A stretch of 64,000 bases of DNA from Clostridia bacterium (lineage in GTDB: Bacteria > Bacillota > Clostridia > TANB77 > CAG-508): positions 28,927-92,926 of the forward strand of contig CAADUZ010000023.1 of NCBI GenBank assembly GCA_900752335.1, written 5' to 3'. Below the pieces are notes generated by a model, which saw only the letters and a program-made list of their open reading frames with translations, was not told the DNA's origin and did not search any database. The stretch's first letter is position 1. Each line of letters begins with the position of its first letter. The position numbers were made by a program, and so were the translations under genes. Positions 15,914 to 37,629 of this stretch are shown here, one piece after another.

Positions 15914-16771
15914 CTATATTTTTTCATTTAATATTTTAGCCTTATATTCTCTATAAAGCAAATCGTATTTTTTGACAAAATCTGTTATCACATACTTTGT
16001 ACAGGGATATTCCTGCCTTAATTTGTTACCTAAAACATGTTTTCTTCCATTTTTATATTGAACTGTATATCCACTTATTTCTTTATTTAGTTCAATATCT
16101 TTGTATAGTGGTATTATTAATTCTCTATACATTCTCTCATAAGAAAATATGTAGGCTTTTCCTACAAAACTTTTCGGAATAAAAACTATTGGTTTATTCA
16201 CATGCATGGGCAATTCTTCTGACATATTCTCCCAACTTTCCGTTTCTCCATTCCAGCATAATTTCTTAAGTTTCACCTTTTTAGTTTGTATTTTCCACAT
16301 TTTGCACTGTTTTTGTGTATATTGTATCAACTCTTTAAAGATTATTGTGGTAATTAAATCCGAAACTTTGTCTTCTCCTACATTTGGTATTATCATTAAA
16401 AAATCGAATATATCTTCTACAAATCCAGAACCAAATATATCATCTTTTTTTAATAGTTGAACCAATGCTGTTCCATCATCTTCTCCCATGCTTTTTCCAT
16501 ATTTTGTTTCTAATGAATATCCTAGTTTTGTTTCATTTCTTTCGTGAAGATTTTGTATATATACCAATAACTCTTGATACTTTCTCTCTTTCGAAAGCTT
16601 TATTATTATATCAATAAACCTCTTTATTTGGCAATAGCACTTTTTATGAATTTCAGTATTCCCATTTTTTATTCTTAATGGGTCTATAAACAGCCTATTA
16701 TCTTTACTTAAATTTATATTTACAAAATCTAATTCTTTTGCAGGAATATGATACTTATTACTAATATTCAT
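15914..16771 (-). CDS. hypothetical protein (first gene of the variable region)
   Basis: 285 aa from ATG 16771 (GTGGAG upstream). No domain recognised. It is divergent from the 16968 operon. Confidence 0.5.
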   Translation of the reverse strand: MNISNKYHIPAKELDFVNINLSKDNRLFIDPLRIKNGNTEIHKKCYCQIKRFIDIIIKLSKERKYQELLVYIQNLHERNETKLGYSLETKYGKSMGEDDGTALVQLLKKDDIFGSGFVEDIFDFLMIIPNVGEDKVSDLITTIIFKELIQYTQKQCKMWKIQTKKVKLKKLCWNGETESWENMSEELPMHVNKPIVFIPKSFVGKAYIFSYERMYRELIIPLYKDIELNKEISGYTVQYKNGRKHVLGNKLRQEYPCTKYVITDFVKKYDLLYREYKAKILNEKI

Positions 16772-16967
16772 AATTTTAACTCCACGTTTTTTGTTTTTAG
16801 TATAGCACCCGTATTCCTTGTTCTCCAGAGCATACAACATTATGTTTTACTTTTTAGTTAATTGTATGTGTGGTTTTAATGCTCGTAGTATTGTTAGTGC
16901 AAAATAATATTTTTATTGACAATTCATTTATTAAATAATAATATTATTTTTAGGAGGGGGTGTGTGT

Positions 16968-17909
16968 ATGGATTATGAAATTTTATATGTATATATAAAA
17001 GCTGTTATCACAAATAATAAATATTTTATGGAGGTAGTAGACTCATTACAATACTGTCAAGAAGATTTTTTTAGTCAAGTCAAATCTAATTTATCTTCTG
17101 AATATAACTCATATAACAATTTAGATATTATGAATATTTTTTGCATTTGTACTGATAAATCCAAAGCTACTAAAATAAAAAGTTCTTTAGCTAATGATAT
17201 TTCAAATAAATTGAAAGGCTTAAAAGATACGTCTTTTGATATGTATAACAACTATATCAATGTATATATAGATTATTTATTAAATAATAATTTATCTCCG
17301 TTAATGTTTTCTCGTGAAATAGACGATTTGTCCATCATTTGTTTAATTGGTAGTAAAACTACTTGCTCTCAACCACCTGTTAAAGTGCAAGAAATTTTAA
17401 ATATTTGGCATAATAAAGAAAAGCCTACTCTTTTTGGAAAGCAAGTATTAACTCAACCATTTTATTATAAAACTCTCCTTAATCGAAAGACTTTAGACAT
17501 AGTTCCTAGTATTAGTGATAACAATTTATATTTATTATTGGAGGGAAATATAAAAATTAAATTAGACTATTCAGCAATTAGTCCTTTTAGCTTTGAAGAT
17601 TCTAGTGTATTTGAGGCAACAGATATACAATCTATATTATATAATCCTGTTTATTGCTTTGGATATGTATTTGAATCTCAAATTATATTTATGGACTGGT
17701 TTGATATTTATTTATATGTTATGGCATTACTGGATATTGATTTAAATGACCTAAAAAAACTTGAAGAATCATATCTTTTGTTCTTGAATTTTATTGATAA
17801 ACATATCTGCAATAAAGTTTACGAAGTCGAACCTATATGCGATAAAAATCTCTTCTTTAAATCATTAAGTAAACATATAAAAATGGCTTCTGAATTTATG
17901 AAACGGTAA
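16968..17909 (+). CDS. hypothetical protein, upstream partner of the Mrr-like nuclease
   Basis: 313 aa. AGGAGGGGG lies upstream of ATG 16968. A TTGACA-17-TAATAT promoter lies at 16916-16944. No domain recognised. Confidence 0.55.
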   Translation: MDYEILYVYIKAVITNNKYFMEVVDSLQYCQEDFFSQVKSNLSSEYNSYNNLDIMNIFCICTDKSKATKIKSSLANDISNKLKGLKDTSFDMYNNYINVYIDYLLNNNLSPLMFSREIDDLSIICLIGSKTTCSQPPVKVQEILNIWHNKEKPTLFGKQVLTQPFYYKTLLNRKTLDIVPSISDNNLYLLLEGNIKIKLDYSAISPFSFEDSSVFEATDIQSILYNPVYCFGYVFESQIIFMDWFDIYLYVMALLDIDLNDLKKLEESYLLFLNFIDKHICNKVYEVEPICDKNLFFKSLSKHIKMASEFMKR

Positions 17910-17976
17910 GGAAGAAATATCAGTTTCTAAAAATTTTATTTGTACTGTTAAAAATAAATGGATTTATATTCCCAAA

Positions 17977-18516
17977 ATGCTTTCTATATTAGAAGAAATT
18001 TATGAGAAAGAAATCACTGATTTATCTAATAGATTAGAATTTAATTCTAACTATTTTAAGAAGTTTATTAACAATTTACCTTCGAGTACAAATTATGCTA
18101 AAGGAAAAGCTTTAGAAGATTTAGTCGCTTACTTTTTTAGCTGCATTAATGAATTTAAAATTACTGGTAGAAATATTAGAAATTTTACTGAAGAAATTGA
18201 TTTATGCCTTTGTAACTGCTCAAACAATGCTCTTTTCTGGGAATTAGGACCTATTGTTTTAGTCGAATGCAAGAATCAGCATGAAAAAATAAATGTAAAA
18301 ACTATACGAAATTTAAGCTCTATTATGGAAGTAAAAGGTATTTCTACTACAATTTTGGTGACAGCTTCTGTTCTTACGAAACCAGCTATAGGAGAAATAG
18401 AAAAAGCTAAATTAACTAATAAAAATATTATCGTTATATATTTAAATGAATTATTAAGTTTAAATAAAACTCCTTTGCAATTTTTAGAAGATAAAATTTT
18501 AGAATACAGTTTATAA
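17977..18516 (+). CDS. PD-(D/E)xK nuclease, Mrr-cat-like restriction endonuclease domain
   Basis: 179 aa: GKALEDLVAYFF...EEIDLCL...IVLVECKNQ...TTILVTASVLT. This matches the Mrr catalytic-core layout (D ... E-x-K). Confidence 0.65.
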   Translation: MLSILEEIYEKEITDLSNRLEFNSNYFKKFINNLPSSTNYAKGKALEDLVAYFFSCINEFKITGRNIRNFTEEIDLCLCNCSNNALFWELGPIVLVECKNQHEKINVKTIRNLSSIMEVKGISTTILVTASVLTKPAIGEIEKAKLTNKNIIVIYLNELLSLNKTPLQFLEDKILEYSL

Positions 18517-18558
18517 ATTAAAACTACCCCTGCACTTTTTATAAATGCAGGGGATTAA

Positions 18559-20697
18559 TCAATAGGCTTCATAATTTATATTTCTACTATAATTCACTTT
18601 GTAATTTTTATTGTTTTCTTCTAAAATATCTTCGAAAATATGATAAATTTCTTTATCGTCAATAGTAATAATCGTCTGTATAATTGGTATAAACTCTTTC
18701 GTTAAGTTATTAGAGAAATATTCAATATCTTTACTAACTGTCTTATCATTGCCATCAAATTCAATTAGTTCTATTATTATTTCTAAACCAAATATCATTC
18801 CAAGAAAACCTGCAATTAAGCATTCATCTATATCACTAAACAAATCATTATCATTAAAAATATTTTTGGCTGCTATTGCATCTAAATGTATAAATTCAGA
18901 TACTTTAGCATAAAAAGTATTATACAATTTTTTATAATTTTCTCCTGCTTTTTCAGCTAATTGTTTTTTCTGAATGTCAAATTTGAATTTTTCTCCAGTT
19001 TTTATATTTTCTATTTCAAATTTGTTAATTTTTTTGTGAGTGCCATTATCAATTCCAGCAACTGGTAAAATCTTTTCCTTAAACAATTTACTGTCTTTTT
19101 TATAAGCTTTGATATTAATTAAAATTTCGAATAATATTCTGTCAACAGCCATAGCATTATCATAATATTCTCCATCTACTAATTCTTTTAATGCTTTTAA
19201 GTTAATACTTGCTTTATATGCCCCAAAAACTAAAAAATCTTTAATATCTTGAATGATAAATTTTTTATTTTTTTGTTTATCTTTAGAATAAAAATTTATA
19301 AAAACATTTAAGCAATATATCATATCATCAATCTTGTTTTGGTTCATATATTCTAAAATAAAACTTATTGCTTCTACTGCTTGTAATTCATTCCATTTAT
19401 TGCCTTTTATTTTGCTTGACATTATCTTTTTATACTCTTTCATATAGCTTTTGAATTTATATATATCTCTATCTGACAATAAATTTTCATTCTCACTTGT
19501 AAGCATAAATCCAGATTTATCTGCTGCATATAGCCAAGCTTTATCAATATCTCCTTTTCTTTTTAAGATTTTATAACCTATTGCTAAATCATTTGGCAAA
19601 ATTCCTCCAAAAATTAAATTTTCATTACCCGGCATTCTTCCAAAAATTCTTTTAAAATGCATTTGCTCATTTTCCAAAATTTCAGTTGCTATTGGATGTA
19701 CAGGTACAGATTTTATATATTCATTTTCTTTTTTAGATTTAAAATACTTCATATTTTTATTTTTACAACACTTTGCATACTTTTTTCCACTTCCACAAGG
19801 ACATTTTTCATTATCGTCCCATTCTTCCTCTTCTTCCTTTAATTTTTCAAAAATATTATCAAAATATTGTACTAACTTTTTCACAAACTGTTCATCTCTA
19901 AATTCTGTTGTTTCCTTCCATCCTTTACCGATTTTTTTAGTGATTCTGATTTCCATTTTTTCGATTATATAATGAGCAAACGAATTAACAAATAGTTCAG
20001 TTGCTTCTTTAGATTCTGAATCTATTTCTGGCATATCTATATCATTAAATAAACTCAAAAAATTATCTGGTACTTTTTTAGACTCTCCTACTAAAATACT
20101 CTTAAGCAGAAAACCAAATTGTTCAAGGCATATTTCAAAATTATCCTTGGCAGCATTTTCATTTGAATAATATATTTGAATTGAATAATTAAGATTATTT
20201 ATCACATTATAATTAGTAAACAGCATTTTATTTTTTCTATATCTATAATTAAAATAAAATATAGCTAAATGGTTAATTTTCTTACTTATAATTGAAAAAT
20301 AGTTGCATTCAGCTTCTAATATTTGCAAAGCTCTTTCCAATTCTTTAACTTCAATATGCCAGTCAGTAGATTCTGCTTCCTTAAATTGCTTAAAATAATT
20401 ATTTAAAATAAATTTTAATACTTTTAGCATATCTTTTTCTATTTCAGCATCTTCCACAATTTCTTCTGTTAACAATGCTAGTGGTGCTATCTTGTTTGGA
20501 TAGAAACTTATTACCTCATTTACCATATATTCTTTTCTTAATTTATCACTAGTACTTTTAGCTTGTTTTACAATTTCTCCTAGAAATTTATTTTGATTTT
20601 CTCTATCTTCATTTTCTATCTTACTAATAATAATTTCTAATATTTTTTTTATTTCGTCTTTTTCTGTAGTTTCAAATAATTTAACAATTTCTTCCAC
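18559..20697 (-). CDS. 712-aa SEC-C motif protein, otherwise uncharacterised
   Basis: CPCGSGKKYAKCC (nt about 19765-19803) is a SEC-C metal-binding motif. I see no Walker or nuclease motifs. It is the last gene of a three-gene minus-strand operon. Confidence 0.6.
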   Translation of the reverse strand: MEEIVKLFETTEKDEIKKILEIIISKIENEDRENQNKFLGEIVKQAKSTSDKLRKEYMVNEVISFYPNKIAPLALLTEEIVEDAEIEKDMLKVLKFILNNYFKQFKEAESTDWHIEVKELERALQILEAECNYFSIISKKINHLAIFYFNYRYRKNKMLFTNYNVINNLNYSIQIYYSNENAAKDNFEICLEQFGFLLKSILVGESKKVPDNFLSLFNDIDMPEIDSESKEATELFVNSFAHYIIEKMEIRITKKIGKGWKETTEFRDEQFVKKLVQYFDNIFEKLKEEEEEWDDNEKCPCGSGKKYAKCCKNKNMKYFKSKKENEYIKSVPVHPIATEILENEQMHFKRIFGRMPGNENLIFGGILPNDLAIGYKILKRKGDIDKAWLYAADKSGFMLTSENENLLSDRDIYKFKSYMKEYKKIMSSKIKGNKWNELQAVEAISFILEYMNQNKIDDMIYCLNVFINFYSKDKQKNKKFIIQDIKDFLVFGAYKASINLKALKELVDGEYYDNAMAVDRILFEILINIKAYKKDSKLFKEKILPVAGIDNGTHKKINKFEIENIKTGEKFKFDIQKKQLAEKAGENYKKLYNTFYAKVSEFIHLDAIAAKNIFNDNDLFSDIDECLIAGFLGMIFGLEIIIELIEFDGNDKTVSKDIEYFSNNLTKEFIPIIQTIITIDDKEIYHIFEDILEENNKNYKVNYSRNINYEAY

Positions 20698-20726
20698 TTA
20701 AACTTCTCCTTTTATGTGTTTAATGC

Positions 20727-21038
20727 TTAATTAAATATTGTTATGTTCTCTTCTTTATCCAAGTATAACTTAATTATATTTTTATATTGATTCAATTTTA
20801 TTTGGTAAATTTGTCCAAGATTTATTAAACAATTATTTTTACTTAATTTATCGCTCAACTTTAGTACCCCAAATTGGACGTCAAAAAATAGTTTATTTAT
20901 TGTATTTAAACTAGAAACTGTTCCTTCGGATTTAATAAATATTTTGCTGTTTTTAAATTTCGATAAAACATTAATCAATTCTTTTTCATTAATATCTTCC
21001 ATATCCACACCACCTATATTTTCAAAACTATATATCAT
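20727..21038 (-). CDS. hypothetical 103-aa protein
   Basis: Overlaps the upstream gene by 11 nt, suggesting translational coupling; alternatively starts at ATG 21002. No family recognised. Confidence 0.45.
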   Translation of the reverse strand: MIYSFENIGGVDMEDINEKELINVLSKFKNSKIFIKSEGTVSSLNTINKLFFDVQFGVLKLSDKLSKNNCLINLGQIYQIKLNQYKNIIKLYLDKEENITIFN

Positions 21039-21594
21039 ATAATTTAATCAATTTATTTTGCATACTAGAAATTTGCTCTTTCAATTTTTTGTCTTCTTCT
21101 AGTATTTTTAATTGCTCTTCCAGTGAGATCTCTGGAATTTCAAACTGCCTCAAACTGTCTAGTCTTATTTGATATGTTGAAGAATATCCTTTTGACATGC
21201 AATATGCCTCTTCCAAAAGTTTCTTTATGTATTTATCTGTATTTAATATTTTTGCTAAAAATATTGGATTATATAGCTCTGCTTTTACTCTTGCAAAAAT
21301 TACTCTTGCAGAATATACCACCTTTTCTTCTCCAAGATTTGTAATATTTCTTACTTGCAAACTGTTTCTAACTAGTTCTGGAAAAATTAAATCATTTTCT
21401 TTTGCTCCGTAAAAGTAAAGTAAGTTTCCCTTATTTTCTAATTCGTACTTATACTCATCTTCTAATATAACGGCCCCATTTTCCTTAATATGAGTTAATC
21501 TTAAATTGTATATATCTCCTGTTTTTGACTTATATTCATCTGGTATAGTCTTTCCTCTACTTATTACGTCACAAATATCTTCTAATTTTAACAT
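21028..21594 (-). CDS. orphan type I R-M specificity-subunit-like protein (single TRD)
   Basis: LKLEDICDVISRGKT...ENDLIFPEL...YNPIFLAKILNTDKYIKKL...LRQFEIPEISLEEQLKI plus a coiled-coil tail, the layout of one HsdS target-recognition domain with its conserved helix. No hsdM or hsdR is in the window. Confidence 0.6.
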   Translation of the reverse strand: MLKLEDICDVISRGKTIPDEYKSKTGDIYNLRLTHIKENGAVILEDEYKYELENKGNLLYFYGAKENDLIFPELVRNSLQVRNITNLGEEKVVYSARVIFARVKAELYNPIFLAKILNTDKYIKKLLEEAYCMSKGYSSTYQIRLDSLRQFEIPEISLEEQLKILEEDKKLKEQISSMQNKLIKLYDI

Positions 21595-21741
21595 TTTTAT
21601 CACCGCATGTAATATATCACATTCTCTTCATTTTGTCAAGTACATTTGTAATACTGTTTATTTTACAACGTAATAACATACGTTAGCATATTTATATAAT
21701 GCCCGTTATCACAAAAAAATGCAGATATATATCTGCATTTT

Positions 21742-22368
21742 TTATACTATATATTTACTTATTTCTTCATATAAATCAACTGTTTTTGGGTTAAGATTAT
21801 GATTATCTGCATATGCATAGCAGTCATTTGATATTTTAGTCATATCTGTCGCAAGACTGTTTACATTATCAATAAAATCGTCATCGTTAATATGATTTAA
21901 TACATTATAGAAGTTTTCATTTACATACTTTAAAATATTAAAGTATAGATCATATGTTTCAGCCAATTCTTCTGCTATCATATCTTTAGAAACTTCATTT
22001 TCTAGTGCTATATATTTTTCAAGTGCTTGAACGTCTATATTAATGTTATCGTCTAATGTATAATCTATATCTGTTACGTCAACTTTTCTAACTACGTCTG
22101 TACATTGACTTGCAATATCCCCTACTTTTTCGATTCCACTACTTGCTCTGTTACAAAATATGCTTGTAATCAATTCCTTTATGATAATTATATTCTCTTC
22201 ATTTCCTTTAGAAACAACATAATCATATGCTTCTTTATATTCTCCTTTTTTCAAGTATTCTACTGCTTTATTTAATTCATAACTTGGTTTAAGTATAATA
22301 AATACTATAGAACCTATTACCGCTAATATTAGCAAAATTATTATTCCTATTTTTATTCCTTTACTCAT
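21742..22368 (-). CDS. membrane-anchored hypothetical protein
   Basis: 208 aa with an N-terminal TM (IKIGIIILLILAVIGSIVFII). No family recognised. Confidence 0.45.
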   Translation of the reverse strand: MSKGIKIGIIILLILAVIGSIVFIILKPSYELNKAVEYLKKGEYKEAYDYVVSKGNEENIIIIKELITSIFCNRASSGIEKVGDIASQCTDVVRKVDVTDIDYTLDDNINIDVQALEKYIALENEVSKDMIAEELAETYDLYFNILKYVNENFYNVLNHINDDDFIDNVNSLATDMTKISNDCYAYADNHNLNPKTVDLYEEISKYIV

Positions 22369-24870: not shown

Positions 24871-25066
24871 TTACGCACTCTTTAATTCAAGCCTCAATTT
24901 ATCAGCAATCATTGCGATAAATTCCGAATTTGTTGGCTTACCTTTTGCTGCTGATACTGTGTAGCCGAATATTCTCTCTACTACATCTTGCTTTCCCCTT
25001 CCCCATGCTACTTCTATTGCATGGCGAATTGCGCGTTCTACTCTGCTTGGGGTTGTGTGATATTTT
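24871..25066 (-). pseudogene. displaced 3' fragment of spo0A (spo0A')
   Basis: 24871-25056 aligns without gaps to 41874-42059, with 22 mismatches in 186 nt by hand. It encodes [61 protein letters not shown] plus a stop, 59/61 identical to the intact Spo0A C-terminus. There is no upstream ORF. Confidence 0.9.
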
Positions 25067-25377
25067 ATGTAGAGTTTATGATTGCAAAAATTTGACTAAA
25101 GCAATAAATATTTATAGCTTTTACCTCAATATGTTTATTGCATTGATTGTAATAGAACTTTTTTCGTTTGTCAATTTTATGAACTATACTTTTTATATTT
25201 TTTGTTATGCAAATCAAATTGCTATATACTTATACTTTTAATAATAGTTCAAAAATAAAAATAACATATTTCATTTACTGTTCTATTTCTTCTTTAATAA
25301 ATTATTATTTTAATTTACTTTTGGCTAAGAAATAAAATAAAGAATAAATGAACGATATCATTTATCCTTTATTTTTA

Positions 25378-26352
25378 TTATGATTTATTTCCCATTCCTA
25401 GCAATAAAGCCTGCCCCAAAAGTCCAATCACTTGACTATAAAACCATTGATGTTTATTAAAATGATTCCCTATCCTTTTACAAAGCCCCGTATTCTTAGC
25501 AATGTTTTTAGTTACATTCATATTATCTATGTAATCTTTGACTTCTTCTAATATTTGTTTTAATTCTTCCTTATCTTCGTTTCCCTTTTCTTCTATCTCT
25601 TTTTCTAAATGGTCAATAGAATTGTTTATTGTAACATTTGAATCTGTAATATTTCCCATATTCAAAAATCCTGTATTTGTTATATTTACTAACGGTCTAT
25701 TCATTTTTTCAATCTGCTCCATATATTTTTTCTCCCTTTCAAAATATGTTTTACCTGGATATGTTAATTCAGCACTATAAACTGTGTCAGAAGCCCAAGT
25801 AACATTTATTAATCCATTTTTAATTAGCATACCTATTATGCCTCTATTTAGCTCATCTTCTTCAATTTTATCTGATAAAAAAGTGTCTATATTCTCTTTT
25901 TTTTCATCTTTTATTATTATTTCTTTTAGTAATTCTTTTGCTTGGTCTGTTAATTCTTCAAACAATTCTTTTCTCATTCCTTTCTTTTCAAAATATGATA
26001 GAGCATCAGGTGTTAAAATTATATGCCAATCTCCACCTATATATAGTTTTCCAAAAGATATATATCCAAATAGTTTTAATCTTTCTATTATACCTTCAAT
26101 ATTGAAGTCCATATATTCAGGGAACTCATTACAATTTCCTGTAATTTGCATTATTTTACCATTATTACTTTTCGACAATAATATTAATAACATTGTTTCT
26201 TCTGTTTCCGATAATAATATCATTTTATTTGCTCCTACCAGATTATTTTTTTCTATTATTTCTTTTTGTTTATTTTGTATAATCTTGCCTATACTCTTAT
26301 TTAAATCTTTTTCAAAATTTTTTAAATTGCATTTAATTTTAATCTTTGCCAT
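25378..26352 (-). CDS. hypothetical protein with C-terminal hydrophobic helix
   Basis: 324 aa. No family recognised. C-terminus reads WFYSQVIGLLGQALLLGMG. It lies between the two type I toxin modules. Confidence 0.5.
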   Translation of the reverse strand: MAKIKIKCNLKNFEKDLNKSIGKIIQNKQKEIIEKNNLVGANKMILLSETEETMLLILLSKSNNGKIMQITGNCNEFPEYMDFNIEGIIERLKLFGYISFGKLYIGGDWHIILTPDALSYFEKKGMRKELFEELTDQAKELLKEIIIKDEKKENIDTFLSDKIEEDELNRGIIGMLIKNGLINVTWASDTVYSAELTYPGKTYFEREKKYMEQIEKMNRPLVNITNTGFLNMGNITDSNVTINNSIDHLEKEIEEKGNEDKEELKQILEEVKDYIDNMNVTKNIAKNTGLCKRIGNHFNKHQWFYSQVIGLLGQALLLGMGNKS

Positions 26353-26420
26353 ATAATACCCTTTCTAAATTATTTCTGCAAAAAGTTGACAATTTAATTA
26401 CAAATGTGTATAATAAGTAT

Positions 26421-26506
26421 AGGAAATGAAAGCCACTTTGTGGTTGCCGAAAAAAGATTTAAAAATAAACCATTTACTCGACCAAAGCAGAATGGTTTAT
26501 TTTTTA
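26421..26506 (+). ncRNA. candidate type I antitoxin sRNA 2
   Basis: Promoter TTGACA (26386-26391), 17 nt, TATAAT (26409-26414). Terminator AATAAACCATT/AATGGTTTATT (26464-26501) plus a T-run that overlaps the toxin 2 stop codon. Confidence 0.55.
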
Positions 26507-26620
26507 TTGCCTATGTAGTAAATACAAGATGATGAATACTAAGGCAAAATTTATGATAGTTACACCTACTAATCCAAAGAAAAGTAGTTTGATGATTAAC
26601 AATAATGCTGATTCTACCAT
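26504..26620 (-). CDS. type I toxin-like 38-aa hydrophobic peptide 2
   Basis: MVESALLLIIKLLFFGLVGVTIINFALVFIILYLLHRQ. RBS GGGGGTGGTG. A paralogue of toxin 1, sharing the G-(I/V)-T-I-I core. The 5' UTR is about 115 nt and starts ATAGGAAATGAGAATAAGC. Confidence 0.65.
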   Translation of the reverse strand: MVESALLLIIKLLFFGLVGVTIINFALVFIILYLLHRQ

Positions 26621-27395
26621 AGCACCACCCCCAGTTGTCAGTCTCACAAGCTAAAAGCTGTGGAAATAATATGTATACATCAAAGAGTAAAAGGTGGCAA
26701 CACACTCCGCTTATTCTCATTTCCTATGCTATCTACTATACTATATTTTTTTACAAAAAACAAGCGAACATAGTAAAGTTTTACAAATAATTTTATATGT
26801 TGTCCGTTTCTATTTCTTAATATTTTATGCTAGTTCAAAAATTAAGATAAGGTGCTTTATCTTGGGTTTATTTATAATTAAATAAACTTATATATATTAA
26901 AATAAATTCTTATTATTGGCTCAAATATAGAATAAATGAACTATGTATATAAAATTCTAATTTTATTATGCTAATAAGCTCAATGTTTTCAATAGTTCAC
27001 GGCGTCTACTTTTTAAAATGTTGTAAATTATTATATAAATTTTCATGTGATTATTTTTCTTTTCTAATATTATTATAATTTTTTGAAAGAGAAGGCTGGA
27101 GTATCTGATATAAGCCAAGTTCACTAATTCGCATAATTGCTTTTAAGGCATTTAAAATCGTGCAGACATAAAGTTATATTCCTAAAAAATAAAAAAGCCT
27201 TAAAATGGATTCTAGCAGGTCTGTTTGCTATTCACTAACTATAATTTTTGTGTTACAATTTAGAAAAGTTATAAAATATAATTTTATCTGTTTTTAATTA
27301 AATTTTATATAGTTATTTGAGTAATTTTTATATTATAAAAAACAAAAACGGTCTTTTTCTATCCTAAAAAAGAGCCGTTTTACAAATATTATATT

Positions 27396-28133
27396 TTAAT
27401 TCAAATATTCGCTAATGTCTTTACCTCCAGATATGTTTTTAAATAGTTCTTTTACACATATCTTAAATTCATCTCCTAATTTGTCAAATGCATCAAAAAA
27501 CTCGTTTATATCACTCCTTTTTTGTGTAGCTTTGTCAAATGCATCTAAATATCTATCTAAATTATTGAAATTAGTTTTATTTTTTTCCTCTAATCCTTCA
27601 ATAGCTGAAATTTCAGTCTTAAAAATTTCGACTGCCTCTTTTGTATTATTATAATATTTTCTGAGTTTTTTAAAATCTATATCATTAATTCTATATGTAT
27701 ATGTTGCAATTTCAATCTCGTCCATGTAACCGCCAAAATTATCATTTATTTTTTGATATAAATTAGTGGAAATCTTTTCTTCCATTTCATTTATTTGCTC
27801 TTGCTTAATTTTTTGCTTTTCTATTTCTTTTTGTTCTTGTATTTGTCTTTCTCTTTCTTCTTCAATAATTTCCTTAACCGTTTTTTCTAGTAATAGTGAA
27901 TTATCATTTCTCTTAATTGCTTCATTATACAATTTTTTTTCCTCATCAGTTAGCTTACTATTTGTTACTTTTTCATTGGTTTCATCTCCTGTATATTTTT
28001 GATTTAATACATTACTGAAAAATAAAAAAATACATATAATTGCTATTATAAATATAATGCTAAATATAGTTACTAATGTTATAATAAATTTATTTTTCTT
28101 TTTTCTCTCCATTTTATTTTCAATTCCTTTCAA
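27396..28133 (-). CDS. membrane-anchored coiled-coil protein
   Basis: 245 aa with an N-terminal TM and a Glu/Lys-rich coiled coil. No family recognised. Confidence 0.5.
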   Translation of the reverse strand: MKGIENKMERKKKNKFIITLVTIFSIIFIIAIICIFLFFSNVLNQKYTGDETNEKVTNSKLTDEEKKLYNEAIKRNDNSLLLEKTVKEIIEEERERQIQEQKEIEKQKIKQEQINEMEEKISTNLYQKINDNFGGYMDEIEIATYTYRINDIDFKKLRKYYNNTKEAVEIFKTEISAIEGLEEKNKTNFNNLDRYLDAFDKATQKRSDINEFFDAFDKLGDEFKICVKELFKNISGGKDISEYLN

Positions 28134-28134
28134 T

Positions 28135-28440
28135 TCATTTTATAATTTTTTTCTTAGCCTCAATTCTTAAAATCTTACTTTTTACAATAATTACTATATC
28201 TATAAAAATAATTGGTAATATAATAAAAAATATCCATACCATATTATTGAATTCGAATGCACTTTGAAAATCTAAAATCAACAAACTCTTTACTGCTCTT
28301 GTCATTCCACACAGAGGACAGCCAGTACATTGAAAATGACTAAAAAAGGATAAATACAAAAATGCAATAGTTAATATCAAATAGCTTATTAATCGTGCAT
28401 TTTGGAAATCATAATCATTTATTGTCTCTTTTATTTTCAT
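28135..28440 (-). CDS. DUF2752-like membrane protein
   Basis: 101 aa with the CTGCPLCGMTRA motif characteristic of DUF2752, plus two TMs. Confidence 0.6.
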   Translation of the reverse strand: MKIKETINDYDFQNARLISYLILTIAFLYLSFFSHFQCTGCPLCGMTRAVKSLLILDFQSAFEFNNMVWIFFIILPIIFIDIVIIVKSKILRIEAKKKIIK

Positions 28441-28819
28441 ATTCTACTTTACTCGCTAAATTTATAAAACTTCCTATTAAACTTAGTAATGGGAAAATCA
28501 TAATTATAATATAACAACATACTGTTGTAGATAAAAATAATACACATAATATAAATAATATTATTGTACTTAACAATATAATTGATACTTTGTATAATTT
28601 TGCTACTTCTTTAAATATTTTTCCTTTTAAAAATAATATAGATATAATAATTATTATTGAGCTATTTAGTATTACAATTATTGCATCTACAATAATTTCA
28701 ATATTAGTACGAATGTCATTACCTACAAATTGGTAATATAAAATAAAAATAATCATCGAAAATATTGTTAAAATATTTCCTATTAAACAAAGGAATGTTC
28801 CTGTTTTACCTGATTTCAT
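28415..28819 (-). CDS. polytopic membrane protein
   Basis: About 134 aa from ATG 28819 (AAGGAGAG upstream), with four predicted TMs. Confidence 0.5.
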   Translation of the reverse strand: MKSGKTGTFLCLIGNILTIFSMIIFILYYQFVGNDIRTNIEIIVDAIIVILNSSIIIIISILFLKGKIFKEVAKLYKVSIILLSTIILFILCVLFLSTTVCCYIIIMIFPLLSLIGSFINLASKVEYENKRDNK

Positions 28820-28832
28820 ATCTAATCTCTCC

Positions 28833-29282
28833 TTATTCATTTATAAATCTAGTTATTCTCGCAGAATTAAAAGAAAGTGTGTGTTTATCATTTTCAACTT
28901 CTGTAGCAATTTCTTTTAATAAATCCGAAGTGTAATCAAGATAACCAACAGATAAATCTGTTGCCTCAGTATTATATAAATTTCCTATATTAGTATCAAT
29001 TTTATTATCATGCAATTCCCAAACTTCTTTAAAAGTATGGTCTTTTCCTTGTTCATCTTCAAAGCTATACTGTATAATACAATAGTCACTCTCTTTGTTT
29101 ATTTTTACACTTATAATCTTAAAGCTATCTTTATATTTTAAATATTTATTTCTTTCTTGTGCCCAATCTATAATAATTTTCTCATCATCACTAGGGGTAT
29201 TGTAAAAATAAAGGCTAACTCCTAATGATGTTAGAACTACTATTATTAGAGAAATTATCCAAATTATTTTAATTTTTTTCAA
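28833..29282 (-). CDS. membrane-anchored hypothetical protein
   Basis: 149 aa. TTG start with AGGAGGA 7 nt upstream. N-terminal TM. Confidence 0.5.
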   Translation of the reverse strand: MKKIKIIWIISLIIVVLTSLGVSLYFYNTPSDDEKIIIDWAQERNKYLKYKDSFKIISVKINKESDYCIIQYSFEDEQGKDHTFKEVWELHDNKIDTNIGNLYNTEATDLSVGYLDYTSDLLKEIATEVENDKHTLSFNSARITRFINE

Positions 29283-29294
29283 TTTATTTTCCTC

Positions 29295-29876
29295 CTAGTT
29301 TTCTTGATATATAATAGAGTCTAATATATCATTAAATTCTTTTATTGGCTCTCCCTTTGGATATGTCACACCCATATAAATTATGCCTGCTCTATTTTGT
29401 ATAATATAAATATCTTCTGTAAATGCTCCTGTTTCATACTCTAATAATGTGCAATTAATAGGTTGGATTTTAGATATAGTTGTTTCTTCTCTTTTTATAA
29501 AAGTACTATTATTAAAAGATTCTCTTGTTTGTATATAATTTTGAATTTCTACTTCTTTATTATATGAGATATTTGGACTATCAGGTATATTACAAAAAAA
29601 TTCACTCCCTGCAATTTTAGGATATTCTAAATTAATCTCAGAATAATTGCCTATTGTTGGCTTTTTCAATTCTTTACTATATTTAAACTCAATTCCATAA
29701 GCCTCATTTTTATATGTTTCTAAATTAGAGTTTTCTTCTTCTGCAACATTCCCCACGTTATTATTATTGATTCCATTGTCTTCTTTTTCTCTATTTTGTA
29801 ACATTAAGACTACTGCAAAAATAACAATTATTAATATAACCAGTAAAACTATATATTTCATAATTTTATTTTTCAT
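29295..29876 (-). CDS. membrane-anchored hypothetical protein
   Basis: 193 aa with an N-terminal TM. AAGGAG lies upstream of the start. Confidence 0.5.
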   Translation of the reverse strand: MKNKIMKYIVLLVILIIVIFAVVLMLQNREKEDNGINNNNVGNVAEEENSNLETYKNEAYGIEFKYSKELKKPTIGNYSEINLEYPKIAGSEFFCNIPDSPNISYNKEVEIQNYIQTRESFNNSTFIKREETTISKIQPINCTLLEYETGAFTEDIYIIQNRAGIIYMGVTYPKGEPIKEFNDILDSIIYQEN

Positions 29877-29968
29877 TTTTTAAACATCTCCTTTTTAAAA
29901 TTAAATAATTATATTTTTTCCATTTTCTTTACTAATTTTTAATTCAATTTCTTTTATATTCTTTTGTT

Positions 29969-30265
29969 TCAAATATTTTTTAACATCTTTTTCTTAATTG
30001 ATTCAAATTCATTTTGCGTAATTGTTCCATTATCTGCTAATTTTTTGAACCTTTCTAGTTCGGCAGAATTATATAATATTTTATTTTCCTTTGTTTTATC
30101 TTTTTGTAATGCAACTATTAATAATCCTATTAAACCTAAGATAAATCCACACCAGAATCCAGTCCAATAAGAGTAACCTTTGTTATCATTAATACTTCCG
30201 CTAATTAGTCCAAAAACAAGTCCTATAAATAAATAACTAAAAATGATTATCCAAAAAATGTCCAT
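29969..30265 (-). CDS. SHOCT-domain membrane protein
   Basis: 98 aa with two TMs and a C-terminal ELERFKKLADNGTITQNEFESIKKKML (SHOCT-type short C-terminal domain). GGGAGGTG lies upstream. Confidence 0.6.
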   Translation of the reverse strand: MDIFWIIIFSYLFIGLVFGLISGSINDNKGYSYWTGFWCGFILGLIGLLIVALQKDKTKENKILYNSAELERFKKLADNGTITQNEFESIKKKMLKNI

Positions 30266-30482
30266 TTTTTAACACCTCCCTTTTATTTTCATTGCAATTT
30301 TGATTCAAACAATACTTACAATAACTTGTGCCGAAATATAGTTTGTTTTCACACTTTTTCTCTGTTTTACCCTCTAAATTTTCCACTTCCAGTCTTAAAT
30401 ATTCTTTGGCTGTATATTTGTCATCACTTAACAAACAACTTCTTATTCTATTTAAAACCTCTAAAAATCTTGTGTTTTCCAT
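30237..30482 (-). CDS. Cys-rich hypothetical protein
   Basis: 81 aa from ATG 30482 (AAAGGAG upstream). Contains CKYCLNQNC. Confidence 0.4.
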   Translation of the reverse strand: MENTRFLEVLNRIRSCLLSDDKYTAKEYLRLEVENLEGKTEKKCENKLYFGTSYCKYCLNQNCNENKREVLKNGHFLDNHF

Positions 30483-30602
30483 TCTTTTGCTCCTTTTCAA
30501 ATTCGTGAAAATTATATCATTTTTCACTCTCACTTGCAAGTGCTACCACCCATAAGTGTTATATAGTAAAATACCTAAAAATAAGCAATATGAGGTGGTA
30601 CA

Positions 30603-30822
30603 ATGATTAAATTAAATGTAGAAAAATTATTGAAGGAACAAAATAAAACTAAAACTTGGTTATGCGACCAGTTAGATATATCATTTTATAATCTTAATAA
30701 AGCCATAAAACCACGGTAAGAAAAGTATTTCATATAAGTATTTAGAAGGTTTTTGTAGAGCTTTAAATTGCAGTTTTAATGATTTAATGTCAATAACCGA
30801 TGACGACAAAGAAGTGAATTAA
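30603..30822 (+). pseudogene. small HTH (XRE/YozG-like) regulator, frameshifted
   Basis: MIKLNVEKLLKEQNKTKTWLCDQLDISFYNLNKAIKPR-stop. It continues in another frame as GKKSISYKYLEGFCRALNCSFNDLMSITDDDKEVN. One extra base lies near 30713-30717. Confidence 0.65.
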
Positions 30823-31055
30823 TTCTTTCCATAAAGAACATTGTTCATTTCTTTGTTTATTTTTTTCTCTATTTTCTTTGCTTTTTCGCTATCTTTTCCA
30901 TATTTTTCTTGTATCTTTTTGTATTCAACCATTAAATAATAAATTTTATTATTTAGAATTTTATCTATATTTTCTATTGCTCTATCTGTATTTCCATACC
31001 TTAAATCCGCTTCAATTTTTTCTAAAATATCTATTGCTATCAAATTTTCTATCAT
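30819..31055 (-). CDS. hypothetical 78-aa protein
   Basis: ORF with a plausible RBS (AAAGAGGGG upstream). No family recognised. Confidence 0.4.
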   Translation of the reverse strand: MIENLIAIDILEKIEADLRYGNTDRAIENIDKILNNKIYYLMVEYKKIQEKYGKDSEKAKKIEKKINKEMNNVLYGKN

Positions 31056-31170
31056 TTTTTACCCCTCTTTTTACAACGTATTACCTATCGTCTAATCTGT
31101 GCAACGATTATATACCAAAACTATTGTAAAATCAATTCATATTTAATAAAAAATTGGAGATAATACATTT

Positions 31171-31431
31171 ATGAATAATGGAAATAAATACAATGGAAAA
31201 TTAAATGTAATTGGTTTAAAAATAAAATATTATAGAGAGAAAAATGGTTGGTCTTTATCTGAATTATCAAATAGGCTAATGTTGCAAGGTATAGATATCC
31301 CTAAATCGTCATTGCAACGAATGGAAACTGGAGGTAGAGCAATACGAGATTATGAACTTGCTGGATTCTCAAAAGTTTTCAAGGTTTCTCCAAATATTCT
31401 TTTAAAGGATTTCTTGGAAGAAATCGAATAA
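31171..31431 (+). CDS. XRE-family HTH regulator
   Basis: 86 aa: IGLKIKYYREKNGWSLSELSNRLMLQGIDIPKSSLQRMETG, a typical HTH_3. Confidence 0.7.
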   Translation: MNNGNKYNGKLNVIGLKIKYYREKNGWSLSELSNRLMLQGIDIPKSSLQRMETGGRAIRDYELAGFSKVFKVSPNILLKDFLEEIE

Positions 31432-31574
31432 AGATTCTACTGTATTTATATAGTAGTTTCTTTTTTTGGCTAGGAGAGTACAGGTGCATATACCAAATAT
31501 ACTAAAAACTTCTTATTGGATAACTTAAAATAGGGGGGGACAAAAAGAACTAGCGATGTGCTAGCCCTCATTTT

Positions 31575-31841
31575 TTACTGCTGTATATCGATTTCAACTT
31601 CTTTGTATTTAATTAATATGTGCCATTTATTTATTATTTTAATTTTACTTACATTTTGTAAATTAACTATAATGTTTTTGTAATCTCCGTTTGAAAACAT
31701 TATTTTTCTTTTGTCTATTATAATTTTTGCATTTTCTAAAAATAAAGTAGTATTAATTATTCCATTTATTGCTATTTGTATATTAACATTTTTATAATGT
31801 TTTAAAAGTATGTACTTTAACTTATTATATTGAATTAACAT
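31575..31841 (-). CDS. hypothetical 88-aa protein
   Basis: ORF overlapping the upstream gene by 7 nt. A CTAGC/GCTAG hairpin terminator follows at about 31546-31575. Confidence 0.4.
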   Translation of the reverse strand: MLIQYNKLKYILLKHYKNVNIQIAINGIINTTLFLENAKIIIDKRKIMFSNGDYKNIIVNLQNVSKIKIINKWHILIKYKEVEIDIQQ

Positions 31842-32017
31842 CTTTTTATCCCTCTTTCCTTTAGTATAGCATAAAAGCTCGTCTTTCCTATCTTTAATGT
31901 CGAATATGTCTCAACTCCTGACTGTTCTCCATTCAAATACTTTTTCAATTCTTCTTGTAGTTTAGTTTCATTTATTACTAGTTTTGGTCTACCGACTTTG
32001 TTTTTTACCTTTTCCAT
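31835..32017 (-). CDS. small HTH DNA-binding protein (Hin/excisionase-like)
   Basis: 60 aa: GRPKLVINE...IGKTSFYAILKERG. It lies immediately downstream of the recombinase. Confidence 0.5.
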   Translation of the reverse strand: MEKVKNKVGRPKLVINETKLQEELKKYLNGEQSGVETYSTLKIGKTSFYAILKERGIKRC

Positions 32018-32036
32018 TTCTTTTTTTACCTCTTTT

Positions 32037-32885
32037 CTATAAAATATTAATTCTTTCTTTTATTTCTTCTTGTGAAGGATTTACATATATTTCTGTTGTT
32101 CTTGTACTTGCATGTCCTCCTATCATTGCTATTTCAATAAGCGAAAAGCCTTTTTTTTGCATATTAGTAAAGCAATAATGCCTTCCTCCGTGAGGTGTCA
32201 AAACACTCGAATATTTATTGAATATCTGATTTATTCTGCTACGACTTACTTTTTTTGACTGTCTACTGACAAACAAATATGAGCTGTCGCTTTTTCTTTC
32301 TTTTAGATATTCTTTTATTGCCTCCACGACTTTGTCGTTCATAAAAACTGTTCTAACTTTTCCGCCTTTTCCGTTTCTTACTATTATTTCTTTACTTGTC
32401 AAGTCAAAATCTGTCATTTGAATATTTAAGCACTCACTAATACGCAAACCTACATAAACAATTATAGTTACTATTGCATAGTCTCTTTTTGTCTCATTTT
32501 CTAATATCTGTTGTCTAAATCTTTCTATGTCTGATGCGTTTACCTTACACGGATTTATATGTTGCTTTTGTATTTTAATAAAATCGTTATCATTTAAAAC
32601 AATGTCTTGTTGTATTTCACTATCTACTAAATATTTGTTATATTTCATTATTGCTGATAAGTTAGCATTAATTGTTTCCGCTTTTAGTGTTTGTCCTTTT
32701 TTCGTTTTCTTTATATTTCGTAAGTAGCTTTTGTAATCTAATACATTAGGTCTATATATTTTTTTCAATTCCTCGCCTGTTGTATCTTTATACCATTTTT
32801 TAAAATTTTCTATGTTTTGTATGTAAGTTTGTATTGTGTTTTGTGATTTGTTTTGTTCTGATAAATAATTTTTAAAATCTTCCAT
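32037..32885 (-). CDS. tyrosine recombinase (XerC/D-like), second recombinase of the element
   Basis: 282 aa from ATG 32885 (AAAGGAGTGG upstream). Catalytic set visible: GLRISE (R), GKGGKVR (K), HGGRH (H-x-x-R), GGHAS (H), TEIY (Y). Confidence 0.8.
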   Translation of the reverse strand: MEDFKNYLSEQNKSQNTIQTYIQNIENFKKWYKDTTGEELKKIYRPNVLDYKSYLRNIKKTKKGQTLKAETINANLSAIMKYNKYLVDSEIQQDIVLNDNDFIKIQKQHINPCKVNASDIERFRQQILENETKRDYAIVTIIVYVGLRISECLNIQMTDFDLTSKEIIVRNGKGGKVRTVFMNDKVVEAIKEYLKERKSDSSYLFVSRQSKKVSRSRINQIFNKYSSVLTPHGGRHYCFTNMQKKGFSLIEIAMIGGHASTRTTEIYVNPSQEEIKERINIL

Positions 32886-33077
32886 TCGTTCCACTCCTTT
32901 CTGTGTAATTATGTTTAACTTGTTTTTTATACTTTTATATGTAATTATGCTTAACTCAATATATGAATTATACAAGTTTTAGCATTCTAGCTCAACATAA
33001 TTGACATTATGATAAACTCATTTTATTTTTTGGTTTAGGCTACTATATAATGTATAAGAAAACATAGTAGCCTTATT

Positions 33078-33140
33078 TTATCTTTTGCCCATTCCGCCTT
33101 TTAAAAGTAAAATAATAATATATATAATTATTAACGCCAT
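33078..33140 (-). CDS. 20-aa hydrophobic micropeptide (tentative)
   Basis: MALIIIYIIILLLKGGMGKR. GGAGG lies 7 nt upstream of the ATG, 18 nt after the previous stop. The hairpin AGGCTACTAT...ATAGTAGCCT (33040-33076) follows. Confidence 0.35.
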   Translation of the reverse strand: MALIIIYIIILLLKGGMGKR

Positions 33141-33158
33141 TCTTTTTCCTCCGTTTCT

Positions 33159-33410
33159 TTAATTTTCTTCTGTATCATTTAATATCATACTAACTTCGTC
33201 ATTTATTTCATCGTCAAAAATTGTGCTATGTCTTTTTAATATTTTTTTGATTTCTTCTAGTTCATTGTCACAAATGTAATTATTAAATTCAAAAAGTCCA
33301 TATCTTACATAAATATATAATGCAACATCAAATTCGTCATCATAAGAAGTTTGCCAAATATCATCTAACTTATTTATTATTGTTTCAATTCTTTTTCTTT
33401 CCATTTTCAA
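33159..33410 (-). CDS. acidic hypothetical 83-aa protein
   Basis: ORF in an operon with 33426-33965. No family recognised. Confidence 0.45.
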   Translation of the reverse strand: MKMERKRIETIINKLDDIWQTSYDDEFDVALYIYVRYGLFEFNNYICDNELEEIKKILKRHSTIFDDEINDEVSMILNDTEEN

Positions 33411-33425
33411 AAATTTCCTTTCTTA

Positions 33426-37607: not shown

Positions 37608-37629
37608 TTTTTCGCCATTTTGTACGAAA

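What the first reader, a model, noticed from the sequence alone, without database searches (positions are those of the whole stretch)
18559..21603. Orphan HsdS-like TRD + 103-aa protein + 712-aa SEC-C protein: candidate uncharacterised defence operon
SEEN: three tightly packed minus-strand genes, with an 11-nt overlap and then a 29-nt gap.

- The first is a half-size type I specificity-subunit-like protein. It has one target-recognition domain plus the conserved helix ending LRQFEIPEISLEEQLKI and a coiled coil.
- No methyltransferase or restriction subunit is present anywhere in the window.
- The last gene encodes a 712-aa protein whose only recognisable feature is a SEC-C zinc motif (CPCGSGKKYAKCC).
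- Its C-terminal third has a ...YNTFYAKVSEFIHLD... segment that vaguely recalls AbiV/DUF5677-type proteins. This is a low-confidence recollection.

The operon sits in a variable region next to an Mrr-like nuclease gene.

INFERENCE: a DNA-sequence reader coupled to an unknown effector, that is a possible novel anti-phage system. Alternatively it is a decayed type I R-M remnant.
Basis: partly seen in the sequence, partly recalled or inferred. Interest (0 to 1): 0.6.

Follow-up and report, generated by a model that had tools for sequence, protein, structure and literature searches.

The report
Three unrelated cargo genes, one transcript
The three genes are real and intact, but they are separate mobile cargo genes that sit side by side downstream of spo0A rather than one defence system; the large one belongs to a widespread, untested SEC-C + DUF5677 family that usually travels alone among phage-defence genes.

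Summary
There are three intact minus-strand genes with one strong promoter, good ribosome-binding sites and a terminator.
- **First gene:** a one-TRD type I S-like protein of 188 aa.
- **Second gene:** a 91-aa protein, not 103 aa, so the 11-nt overlap is really a 25-nt gap. Its model is a PH-like beta-sandwich.
- **Third gene:** a 712-aa SEC-C + DUF5677 protein. The AbiV recollection fails.

The whole genome has no HsdM or HsdR.

- DNA comparison shows two cassettes joined inside the 29-nt spacer.
- S188+p91 occurs without p712. p712 relatives occur without S188 in about nine other lineages. p91 occurs behind an integrase without S188.
- The region between hom and spo0A collects cargo from elements that integrate into the spo0A 3' end.
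- It is not a decayed R-M remnant either. dN/dS is 0.06-0.29, and S188 keeps 188 aa down to 53% identity with no hsdM or hsdR nearby.

p712 is the rare long form of a roughly 415-aa family with at least 302 clusters. Its model is confident (pLDDT 92) but has no PDB match. Its neighbours are often defence genes. It resembles Rugutis in layout but shares only the SEC-C motif with it. It is a plausible single-gene defence candidate. Function is untested.

The parts
21028..21594 (-). S188: stand-alone half-size type I specificity-subunit-like protein, one TRD plus one conserved helix (the longest ORF starts at the GTG at 21603)
   Evidence: PADLOC Specificity_I 4.5e-13 over residues 3-187. The best PDB profile hits are HsdS chains 5ybb and 3okg, weakly (E 0.055-0.062). 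There are 188-aa homologues at 84, 77, 57 and 53% identity. dN/dS is 0.13-0.29.
20727..21002 (-). p91: small basic protein (pI 9.0) with a PH-like beta-sandwich model; function unknown
   Evidence: SD AGGTGGTG lies before Met13. Homologues are 91 aa. AF2 pLDDT is 90.6. Foldseek gives weak PH, YojF and ChuX-like hits with E 5e-3 to 5e-2. dN/dS is 0-0.06. There is no Pfam, PADLOC or PHROG hit.
18559..20697 (-). p712: long form of the SEC-C + DUF5677 family. Residues 1-290 are an N-terminal extension. The SEC-C zinc knuckle is at 296-311, a middle domain at about 330-430 and DUF5677 at about 490-620.
   Evidence: Pfam SEC-C 2.9e-6 and DUF5677 1.1e-5. 91 of 97 family members hit DUF5677. AF2 pLDDT is 92.3. 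Neither PDB nor BFVD gives a match at E<=1e-3. C299, C301 and H604 are invariant; C310, C311, R354, Y390, E421, R520, E524, Y596 and D657 are nearly invariant.
21611..21639 (-). Promoter-like site TTGACA-17-TATATT with an extended -10 TG. It is the best match in the region and lies in front of S188.
   Evidence: 11 of 12 matches. It lies inside the block conserved with L009 and L053, whose upstream border is 21699.
21713..21738 (-). Perfect 20-nt palindrome ATGCAGATAT/ATATCTGCAT followed by T7. This is a terminator-like hairpin that ends the upstream p208 unit.
   Evidence: Read from the sequence. The scan did not list it because it has too few G-C pairs.
20713..20722 (.). Junction between the S188-p91 cassette and the p712 cassette, inside the 29-nt spacer
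   Evidence: L053 matches the window only from 21699 to 20713 and then jumps to hom. L003 matches the window from 20722 to 18574.
18527..18553 (-). Intrinsic-terminator-like hairpin directly after the p712 stop. It lies between the convergent p712 and Mrr genes.
   Evidence: 11-bp stem with 6 G-C pairs and a T-rich tail.

Best explanation
**Overall reading.** The three genes are real, intact, selected and probably co-transcribed in this strain. They are nevertheless separable cargo genes, not one machine.

The stretch between hom and spo0A is an accretion zone. Integrative elements that target the 3' end of spo0A have left cargo there. One 3.2-kb block in it is a fusion of two cassettes, S188+p91 and p712, joined within the 29-nt spacer.

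**p712 (inferred).** It most likely acts alone as a single-protein anti-phage or abortive-infection-type factor. The four-cysteine SEC-C zinc knuckle would serve as a docking or sensing module. The helical DUF5677 domain, with its conserved R520, E524, Y596, H604 and D657, would be the effector. The 290-residue N-terminal extension is an add-on specific to the rare long form.

**S188 (inferred).** It is a DNA-recognition module of type I S-subunit ancestry that small integrative elements carry as a stand-alone gene. This genome has no HsdM or HsdR. It therefore either waits for a type I enzyme supplied in trans, or it has a DNA-binding role of its own for the element.

**p91 (inferred).** It is a small PH-like binding protein that travels with either S188 or an integrase.

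**What is shown.** Gene integrity, purifying selection, domain content, cassette borders, independent distribution of the three genes, and absence of HsdM and HsdR.

**What is inferred.** The defence role and any biochemical activity.
For: **Operon anatomy.**

**Cassette borders.** The window and L009 (97.7% identity) share exactly 18543-21699. L053 shares 21699-20713 and then runs straight to hom with no p712. L003 shares 20722-18574.

**p712 without S188.** This is seen in L003/L054, L006, L008/L056, L012, L013, L014, L048, L055 and L057.

**S188 without p712.**
- L053 has S188 and p91 only.
- L050 and L052 carry S188 on integrase-bearing elements without p91, p712, hsdM or hsdR.

**p91 behind an integrase.** In L003, p91 follows an integrase whose DNA is 67% identical to window 40672-41662. 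Several spo0A 3' fragments in L003 (4977-5176, 7566-7773) mark serial insertions.

**The window's own inserted element.** A full spo0A lies at 41877-42692 and a duplicated 3' fragment at 24874-25065.

**Family structure of p712.**
- 544 representative clusters match; 302 have E<=1e-10.
- Most are about 415 aa and match residues 291-700.
- 91 of 97 members hit DUF5677 and 85 of 97 hit SEC-C.
- True homologues occur in only 4 of 301 genomes of the order.

**Neighbours of family members.** nSTAND3, HNH, RelB/YafQ, Mrr, a Gabija-like pair (AAA_15/OLD-TOPRIM plus UvrD), a Schlafen/AlbA_2 protein, Fic and integrases.

**Selection.** dN/dS is 0.06-0.29 for all three genes.

**Missing type I partners.** The own genome has no HsdM_N and no HSDR_N. 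Its N6_Mtase hits are PrmC and an MTS methyltransferase. HsdM_N is present in 10 of 38 genomes of the genus.
Against: - In this species the three genes share one promoter and one terminator and are inherited as a block, so functional coupling here cannot be excluded by comparison alone.
- p91 lies near a p712 relative in a second lineage (L003/L054). There a toxin-antitoxin pair and a spo0A fragment lie between them.
- No experiment supports a defence role for any DUF5677 protein. The one DUF5677 ORF tested in Enterococcus faecalis was not among the five that protected (PMC12632615).
- One short-form homologue sits among housekeeping genes (L058).
- Contexts come mostly from short metagenome contigs, so hsdM or hsdR elsewhere in those genomes cannot be ruled out.
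- The own assembly is 93% complete.
Confidence: 0.6

Rival explanations
1. First reader's model. The triad is one anti-phage system: an S188 dimer reads a DNA sequence, p91 bridges, and p712 is the effector.
For: - One promoter, tight spacing and one terminator.
- The block is inherited intact between strains while both flanks vary.
- All three genes are under purifying selection.
- The N-terminal 290 residues of p712 are specific to the long form and could be a docking domain.
Against: - The triad is seen only within one species.
- Each gene occurs without the others in other lineages. Long-form p712 with the same N-terminal domain occurs without S188 in about nine other lineages.
- The cassette junction lies in the spacer.
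Confidence: 0.12
2. Decayed type I R-M remnant. S188 is what is left of an hsdS gene after loss of hsdM and hsdR, and it is on its way to being lost.
For: - It is half-size, with one TRD.
- The genome has no HsdM or HsdR.
- Type I systems exist in 10 of 38 genomes of the genus.
Against: - dN/dS is 0.13-0.29.
- Length is exactly 188 aa in five clusters down to 53% identity, with the TRD as conserved as the helix.
- None of four independent contexts has hsdM or hsdR fragments next to it.
- It has its own strong promoter.
Confidence: 0.06
3. p712 works with the neighbouring p315 + Mrr-like nuclease pair as a three-gene system. S188 and p91 are bystanders.
For: - p315 and Mrr flank p712 in the window and in L008/L056/G278, at the same divergence as p712 (50-53% identity).
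- In L012 they are also present, in a different genomic place and in tandem orientation.
- Both are rare. p315 is in 4 and full-length p712 in 3 of 301 genomes, and they are adjacent in 2.
Against: - p712 lacks them in L003, L006, L013, L014 and L048.
- The p315-Mrr pair occurs without p712 in G166.
- The pair is largely deleted in the 97% relative L009, where p712 stays intact with dN/dS 0.17.
- In L012 the Mrr gene appears split.
Confidence: 0.1
4. p712 is not a defence protein. It is an accessory factor of another kind, for example a ribosome- or Sec-associated protein recruited through its SEC-C motif, or a function of the mobile element itself.
For: - SEC-C motifs are best known from SecA, YecA and YchJ.
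- One short-form homologue lies between queH and housekeeping genes.
- The DUF5677 ORF tested in E. faecalis did not protect.
Against: - Distribution is patchy (4 of 301 genomes).
- Family members sit repeatedly beside nSTAND3, Gabija-like, HNH, Mrr, toxin-antitoxin and integrase genes.
- SEC-C motifs also head a validated defence protein, Rugutis.
Confidence: 0.12

Closest known systems
Rugutis (Lactococcus plasmid pUCCL633A, WP_137016746, 359 aa; Grafakou et al. 2024, PMC11381338; Mosterd et al. 2025, PMC12184496)
   Same: - It is a single-gene unit on mobile DNA.
- A SEC-C zinc knuckle heads the core. The common 415-aa form of the p712 family also starts with it.
- The rest of the protein gives a confident AlphaFold model with no PDB relative.
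   Different: - Profile-profile comparison aligns only the 27 columns of the SEC-C motif.
- Rugutis and its relatives do not hit DUF5677. They have a second conserved Cys/His cluster that p712 lacks.
- p712 has an extra 290-residue N-terminal domain.
- Rugutis is experimentally validated and is triggered by a phage large terminase. p712 is untested.
Pfam DUF5677 (PF18928) proteins
   Same: The C-terminal domain of p712 (about 490-620) matches the model. Relatives pass the curated cut-off: L048 at 34.3 bits, L049 at 27.7 bits, and 91 of 97 family members match.
   Different: - The window protein itself is 1.1 bits under the cut-off.
- The family has no known function.
- Many DUF5677 proteins lack SEC-C, for example the 277-aa one in L008.
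- The one ORF tested gave no protection in E. faecalis.
Type I R-M specificity subunit HsdS, including orphan or plasmid-borne hsdS genes that use chromosomal HsdM/HsdR (known from Lactococcus; my own knowledge)
   Same: S188 has one TRD plus the conserved helix with the ...IP..S.EEQ..I motif. It is carried by mobile elements.
   Different: - It is half-size.
- The TRD is conserved across the family instead of hypervariable.
- No HsdM or HsdR is adjacent or anywhere in the genome.
- Pfam Methylase_S is below its cut-off.
AbiV (HEPN_AbiV RNase with RNA antitoxin)
   Different: - p712, its C-terminal part alone and three short-form relatives give no PADLOC hit to AbiV. The whole protein was scanned at E<=0.1 and the separate pieces and relatives at E<=10.
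- None of the 97 family members gives a Pfam HEPN_AbiV hit at E<=0.01.
- No conserved Rx4-6H motif is seen.

Membership tests
Type I R-M specificity subunit (HsdS) | Profile match to a TRD plus conserved helical region | tested here: met
   There are 27 PADLOC matches, nearly all Specificity_I models; the best is 4.5e-13 over residues 3-187. The best PDB profile hits are HsdS chains, weakly (E 0.055-0.062). Pfam Methylase_S is only 14.2 bits against a cut-off of 22.
Type I R-M specificity subunit (HsdS) | Two TRDs alternating with two conserved regions | tested here: not met
   S188 aligns to only one half of the two-TRD models (197-375 of 392). All five relatives are 188-195 aa.
Type I R-M specificity subunit (HsdS) | Partner hsdM and hsdR genes adjacent or elsewhere in the genome | tested here: not met
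   The own genome has no HsdM_N and no HSDR_N. Its N6_Mtase hits are PrmC and an MTS methyltransferase. There is no M or R next to S188 in L050, L052 or L053. The assembly is 93% complete.
SEC-C motif (PF02810) | CxC...CC/CH zinc knuckle matching the model over its cut-off | tested here: met
   27.5 bits against 20.4 at residues 296-311. C299 and C301 are invariant and C310 and C311 nearly invariant in 97 sequences.
DUF5677 (PF18928) | Match to the Pfam model over the gathering score | tested here: inconclusive
   The window protein scores 26.0 bits against 27.1. Clear homologues pass: L048 at 34.3 and L049 at 27.7 bits. 91 of 97 aligned family members match at E<=0.01. Membership at family level is sound.
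AbiV / HEPN_AbiV | Profile match to AbiV and a HEPN Rx4-6H motif | tested here: not met
   There is no PADLOC AbiV hit for the whole protein at E<=0.1. There is none at E<=10 for its three separate parts or for three short-form relatives. No Pfam HEPN family appears among the 97 members. The invariant H604 has no Arg 4-6 residues before it.
Rugutis | Homology of the effector domain to Rugutis (WP_137016746) | tested here: not met
   hhalign of the 97-sequence family against a 4-sequence Rugutis family alignment aligns only the 27 SEC-C columns.
Rugutis | Single gene sufficient for phage resistance; triggered by a phage terminase | not testable with these tools
   This needs expression and phage challenge.
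Known defence systems in PADLOC-DB v2 | Any component model matching p91 or the non-SEC-C parts of p712 | tested here: not met
   p91 has no hits. p712 hits only through the SEC-C motif (E2 and PDC-S12 models). Its three parts scanned apart give nothing at E<=10.

The most novel reading that the evidence does not exclude
The SEC-C zinc knuckle is a reusable 'head' for single-protein anti-phage factors. It would be joined to unrelated effector domains: the Rugutis domain, DUF5677, and the C-terminal ends of some CBASS E2-like proteins and of PDC-S12. The DUF5677 branch has at least 302 clusters at 50% identity and a fold without PDB relatives. It would then be a widespread, so far unrecognised defence family, and p712 would be its long form with an extra sensor domain.
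Probability: 0.3. Interest if true: 0.6.

Novelty: new variant of a known kind. Interest (0 to 1): 0.35.

Why it matters
- **Gene neighbourhoods can mislead.** A neat three-gene operon in a defence island need not be a system. Here the exact cassette borders show it was assembled from independent cargo genes.
- **A candidate family for phage-challenge tests.** The SEC-C + DUF5677 family is large, confidently modelled, has no solved relative, and sits repeatedly among defence genes. Current defence finders do not recognise it.
- **An unexplained role for a lone S-like protein.** A conserved 188-aa stand-alone S-like family lives on small integrative elements, in a genome with no type I enzyme. 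What a lone target-recognition domain does there is an open question.

Tried and rejected
- **AbiV link.** No profile support.
- **Rugutis homology.** I recovered Rugutis through a Listeria relative and pUCCL633A. Only the SEC-C motif aligns.
- **Fold searches of the p712 model.** PDB and BFVD gave nothing at E<=1e-3. Weak hints to M34 and IrrE-type peptidases (E 0.1-0.5) were not pursued, because p712 has no HExxH motif.
- **Sequence search of PDB.** It found only SEC-C peptides.
- **Phage and plasmid searches.**
  - tblastn of p712 and S188 against the phage records gave no match.
  - tblastn of the p712 core against the plasmid records gave no match. S188 was not searched against plasmids.
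  - IMG/VR scans for all three genes gave no relatives.
- **Metagenome scan for S188.** It returned only one near-identical contig.
- **Search with the deep alignment A2 in genome contigs.** It failed for lack of a conserved stretch. A1 gave four loci.
- **Paralogues in the window.** None found.
- **Phage P88.** I fetched it as a possible carrier of a SEC-C cargo gene. It carries hok/gef at that site instead.
Full report
**1. What is in the sequence**

Three minus-strand ORFs lie at 21028-21603, 20727-21038 and 18559-20697.

Reading the DNA and scanning for signals gives a complete transcription unit:
- The p208 gene upstream ends with a perfect 20-nt palindrome followed by T7 (21713-21738).
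- The best promoter match of the region follows: TTGACA-17-TATATT with an extended -10 TG, 11 of 12 matches, at 21639-21611.
- The three genes come next.
- A G+C-rich hairpin with a T tail (18553-18527) lies right after the last stop.

Two starts need correction:
- All relatives of the first protein are 188 aa, so the ATG at 21594 is the likely start.
- Relatives of the second are 91 aa. A strong SD (AGGTGGTG) precedes Met13 at 21002.

The reported 11-nt overlap is therefore really a 25-nt gap. The 29-nt spacer before the third gene is correct and holds AAAGGAGAA.

**2. What the proteins are**

*S188*
- It matches 27 PADLOC models, nearly all type I specificity-subunit models. The best is 4.5e-13. 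The match covers its whole length against one TRD plus helix of two-TRD models.
- Pfam Methylase_S is under its cut-off.
- A profile of the family finds HsdS crystal structures as its best PDB matches, but weakly (E 0.055-0.062).

*p91*
- It has no family match in Pfam, PADLOC, NCBIfam or PHROGs.
- Its AlphaFold model is confident (pLDDT 90.6).
- The model is a small beta-sandwich with an N-terminal helix. It resembles PH-like domains, YojF and ChuX-type proteins only weakly (E 5e-3 to 5e-2).

*p712*
- It has a SEC-C zinc knuckle at 296-311 (27.5 bits).
- It matches DUF5677 at 499-618, at 26.0 bits against a cut-off of 27.1.
- More distant relatives pass the DUF5677 cut-off (34.3 and 27.7 bits). 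91 of 97 aligned family members match it.
- Nothing supports AbiV.

**3. No type I partner**

The window's genome is 1.2 Mb in 50 contigs and 93% complete.
- It has no HsdM_N and no HSDR_N match.
- It has no other Methylase_S.
- Its two weak N6_Mtase hits are PrmC and an MTS-type methyltransferase.
- HsdM is present in 10 of 38 genomes of the genus. Type I systems therefore circulate in the genus, but this genome lacks one.

**4. Is the triad a unit?**

*p712 relatives.* The word-indexed search found 29 relatives, most of them 712-718 aa. I looked at their contigs and screened every locus with tblastn.
- Only the 97%-identical relative (L009-L011, and L074) has the triad.
- At 32-59% identity the large gene stands without any S-like gene in L003/L054, L006, L008/L056, L012, L013, L014, L048, L055 and L057.

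*S188 relatives.* S188 has four further clusters of relatives.
- In L053 (77% identity) S188 and p91 are followed directly by hom, with no p712.
- In L050 (53%) and L052 (57%) S188 sits on small integrase-bearing elements without p91, p712, hsdM or hsdR.

*p91 relatives.* A p91 relative (50% identity) follows an integrase in L003/L054 without S188.

*Cassette borders from DNA comparison.*
- The window and L009 share exactly 18543-21699, while both flanks differ.
- L053 shares 21699-20713.
- L003 shares 20722-18574.
- The two cassettes therefore meet inside the 29-nt spacer.

**5. Why they are neighbours**

- In the window, spo0A is complete at 41877-42692. A copy of its last 64 codons lies at 24874-25065. 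The roughly 17 kb in between carry integrase genes.
- An earlier follow-up in this scan reached the same reading of that element.
- L003 has several spo0A 3' fragments. Its integrase DNA is 67% identical to window 40672-41662.
- The zone between hom and spo0A thus collects cargo from serial integrations.
- In different genomes it holds nSTAND3, HNH, RelB/YafQ, Mrr, DUF5677 and p712 genes.

**6. Not a remnant**

- dN/dS is 0.13-0.29 for S188, 0-0.06 for p91 and 0.17 for p712.
- S188 keeps its length and its TRD sequence down to 53% identity.

**7. The p712 family**

- A profile search of 1.84 billion representatives found 544 clusters, 302 of them at E<=1e-10. Most are about 415 aa and match residues 291-700. 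They start with the SEC-C motif.
- The 290-residue N-terminal domain is confined to a few clusters.
- In a 97-sequence alignment C299, C301 and H604 are invariant. C310, C311, R354, Y390, E421, R520, E524, Y596 and D657 are nearly so.
- The AlphaFold model is confident (pLDDT 92.3, pTM 0.80). It has no match at E<=1e-3 in PDB or BFVD.
- True homologues occur in 4 of 301 genomes of the order.
- Short forms sit next to a Gabija-like pair (L061) and next to Fic (L049). One sits between housekeeping genes (L058).
- None of the three genes was found in phage records or IMG/VR.

**8. Comparison with what is known**

*Published work on the two families.*
- Full-text search found DUF5677 in two papers. 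Only one bears on defence: a preprint in which a DUF5677 ORF, enriched near serine recombinases, was tested in E. faecalis. It is not among the five ORFs that protected.
- The nearest validated system by layout is Rugutis. It is a 359-aa lactococcal single-gene Abi-like protein with an N-terminal SEC-C motif and a fold with no PDB relative. The phage c2 large terminase triggers it.

*Direct comparison with Rugutis.*
- I recovered Rugutis (pUCCL633A, WP_137016746) and three relatives.
- I compared the two families profile against profile. Only the 27 columns of the SEC-C motif align.
- Rugutis relatives do not hit DUF5677.
- p712 therefore resembles Rugutis in layout but is not a member of its family.

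**9. A second association**

- The p315 + Mrr pair flanks p712 in three lineages, once in another genomic place and orientation.
- The pair also occurs without p712 (G166). It is largely deleted in L009, where p712 stays intact.
- I rate a functional link at about 10%.

**10. Verdict**

- The coupled reader-effector model and the remnant model are both poorly supported.
- The best reading is a mosaic of separable cargo genes.
- p712 is a plausible but untested single-gene defence candidate of the SEC-C + DUF5677 family.
- S188 is a conserved stand-alone half-S protein of unknown role.

Noticed in passing
window 24871-42692: A roughly 17-kb element with integrase genes (32037-32975, 40664-41707) is inserted in the 3' end of spo0A. 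Full spo0A lies at 41877-42692, and a duplicated fragment (codons 209-272) at 24874-25065.
   Followed up: partly
window 15914-16840 (-): A 308-aa protein matches the PADLOC candidate PDC-M36A (1.7e-19) and phrog_27295 (7e-38). Its homologue in L009 is labelled DUF8370. It is another defence-candidate gene in the same island.
   Followed up: no
window 16962-18516 (+); L008 10169-11735; L012 6456-7833; L066; L067: The p315 + Mrr-like nuclease pair is a conserved two-gene unit. It sits next to p712 relatives in three lineages, but it also occurs without them (G166) and is largely deleted in L009.
   Followed up: partly
window 21742-22368 (-); L050 2867-3511: The membrane-anchored 208-aa protein upstream of S188 has a 55%-identical homologue directly upstream of the 53%-identical S188 in L050. 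This suggests an older p208-S188 pairing. L009 and L053 carry a different 217-aa membrane protein at that place.
   Followed up: partly
L003 4977-5176 and 7566-7773: Several spo0A 3' fragments lie in one locus. This indicates serial integrations at the same site, with nSTAND3, integrase-p91, RelB/YafQ and p716-HNH segments between them.
   Followed up: partly
L013 8001-12530: A p712 relative is followed after 30 nt, on the same strand, by a 784-aa nSTAND3 protein. This could be an operon in that lineage.
   Followed up: no
L008 11787-12620: A second, 277-aa DUF5677 protein without SEC-C (42.5 bits) lies in the same island as the p712 relative.
   Followed up: no
L057 6001-8126: The p712 relative matches in three tblastn pieces in different frames, so it is probably a frameshifted pseudogene in that genome.
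   Followed up: no
L050 4531-5910: A 459-aa protein with a P-loop (GNKGSGKST) lies between S188 and an integrase. It has no Pfam hit. It may be the replication or mobilisation protein of a small integrative element.
   Followed up: no
L053 2482-2579 and window 26408-26509: A 104-nt segment (82% identity) of the small toxin/sRNA-like module noted by earlier readers recurs between p91 and hom in L053.
   Followed up: no
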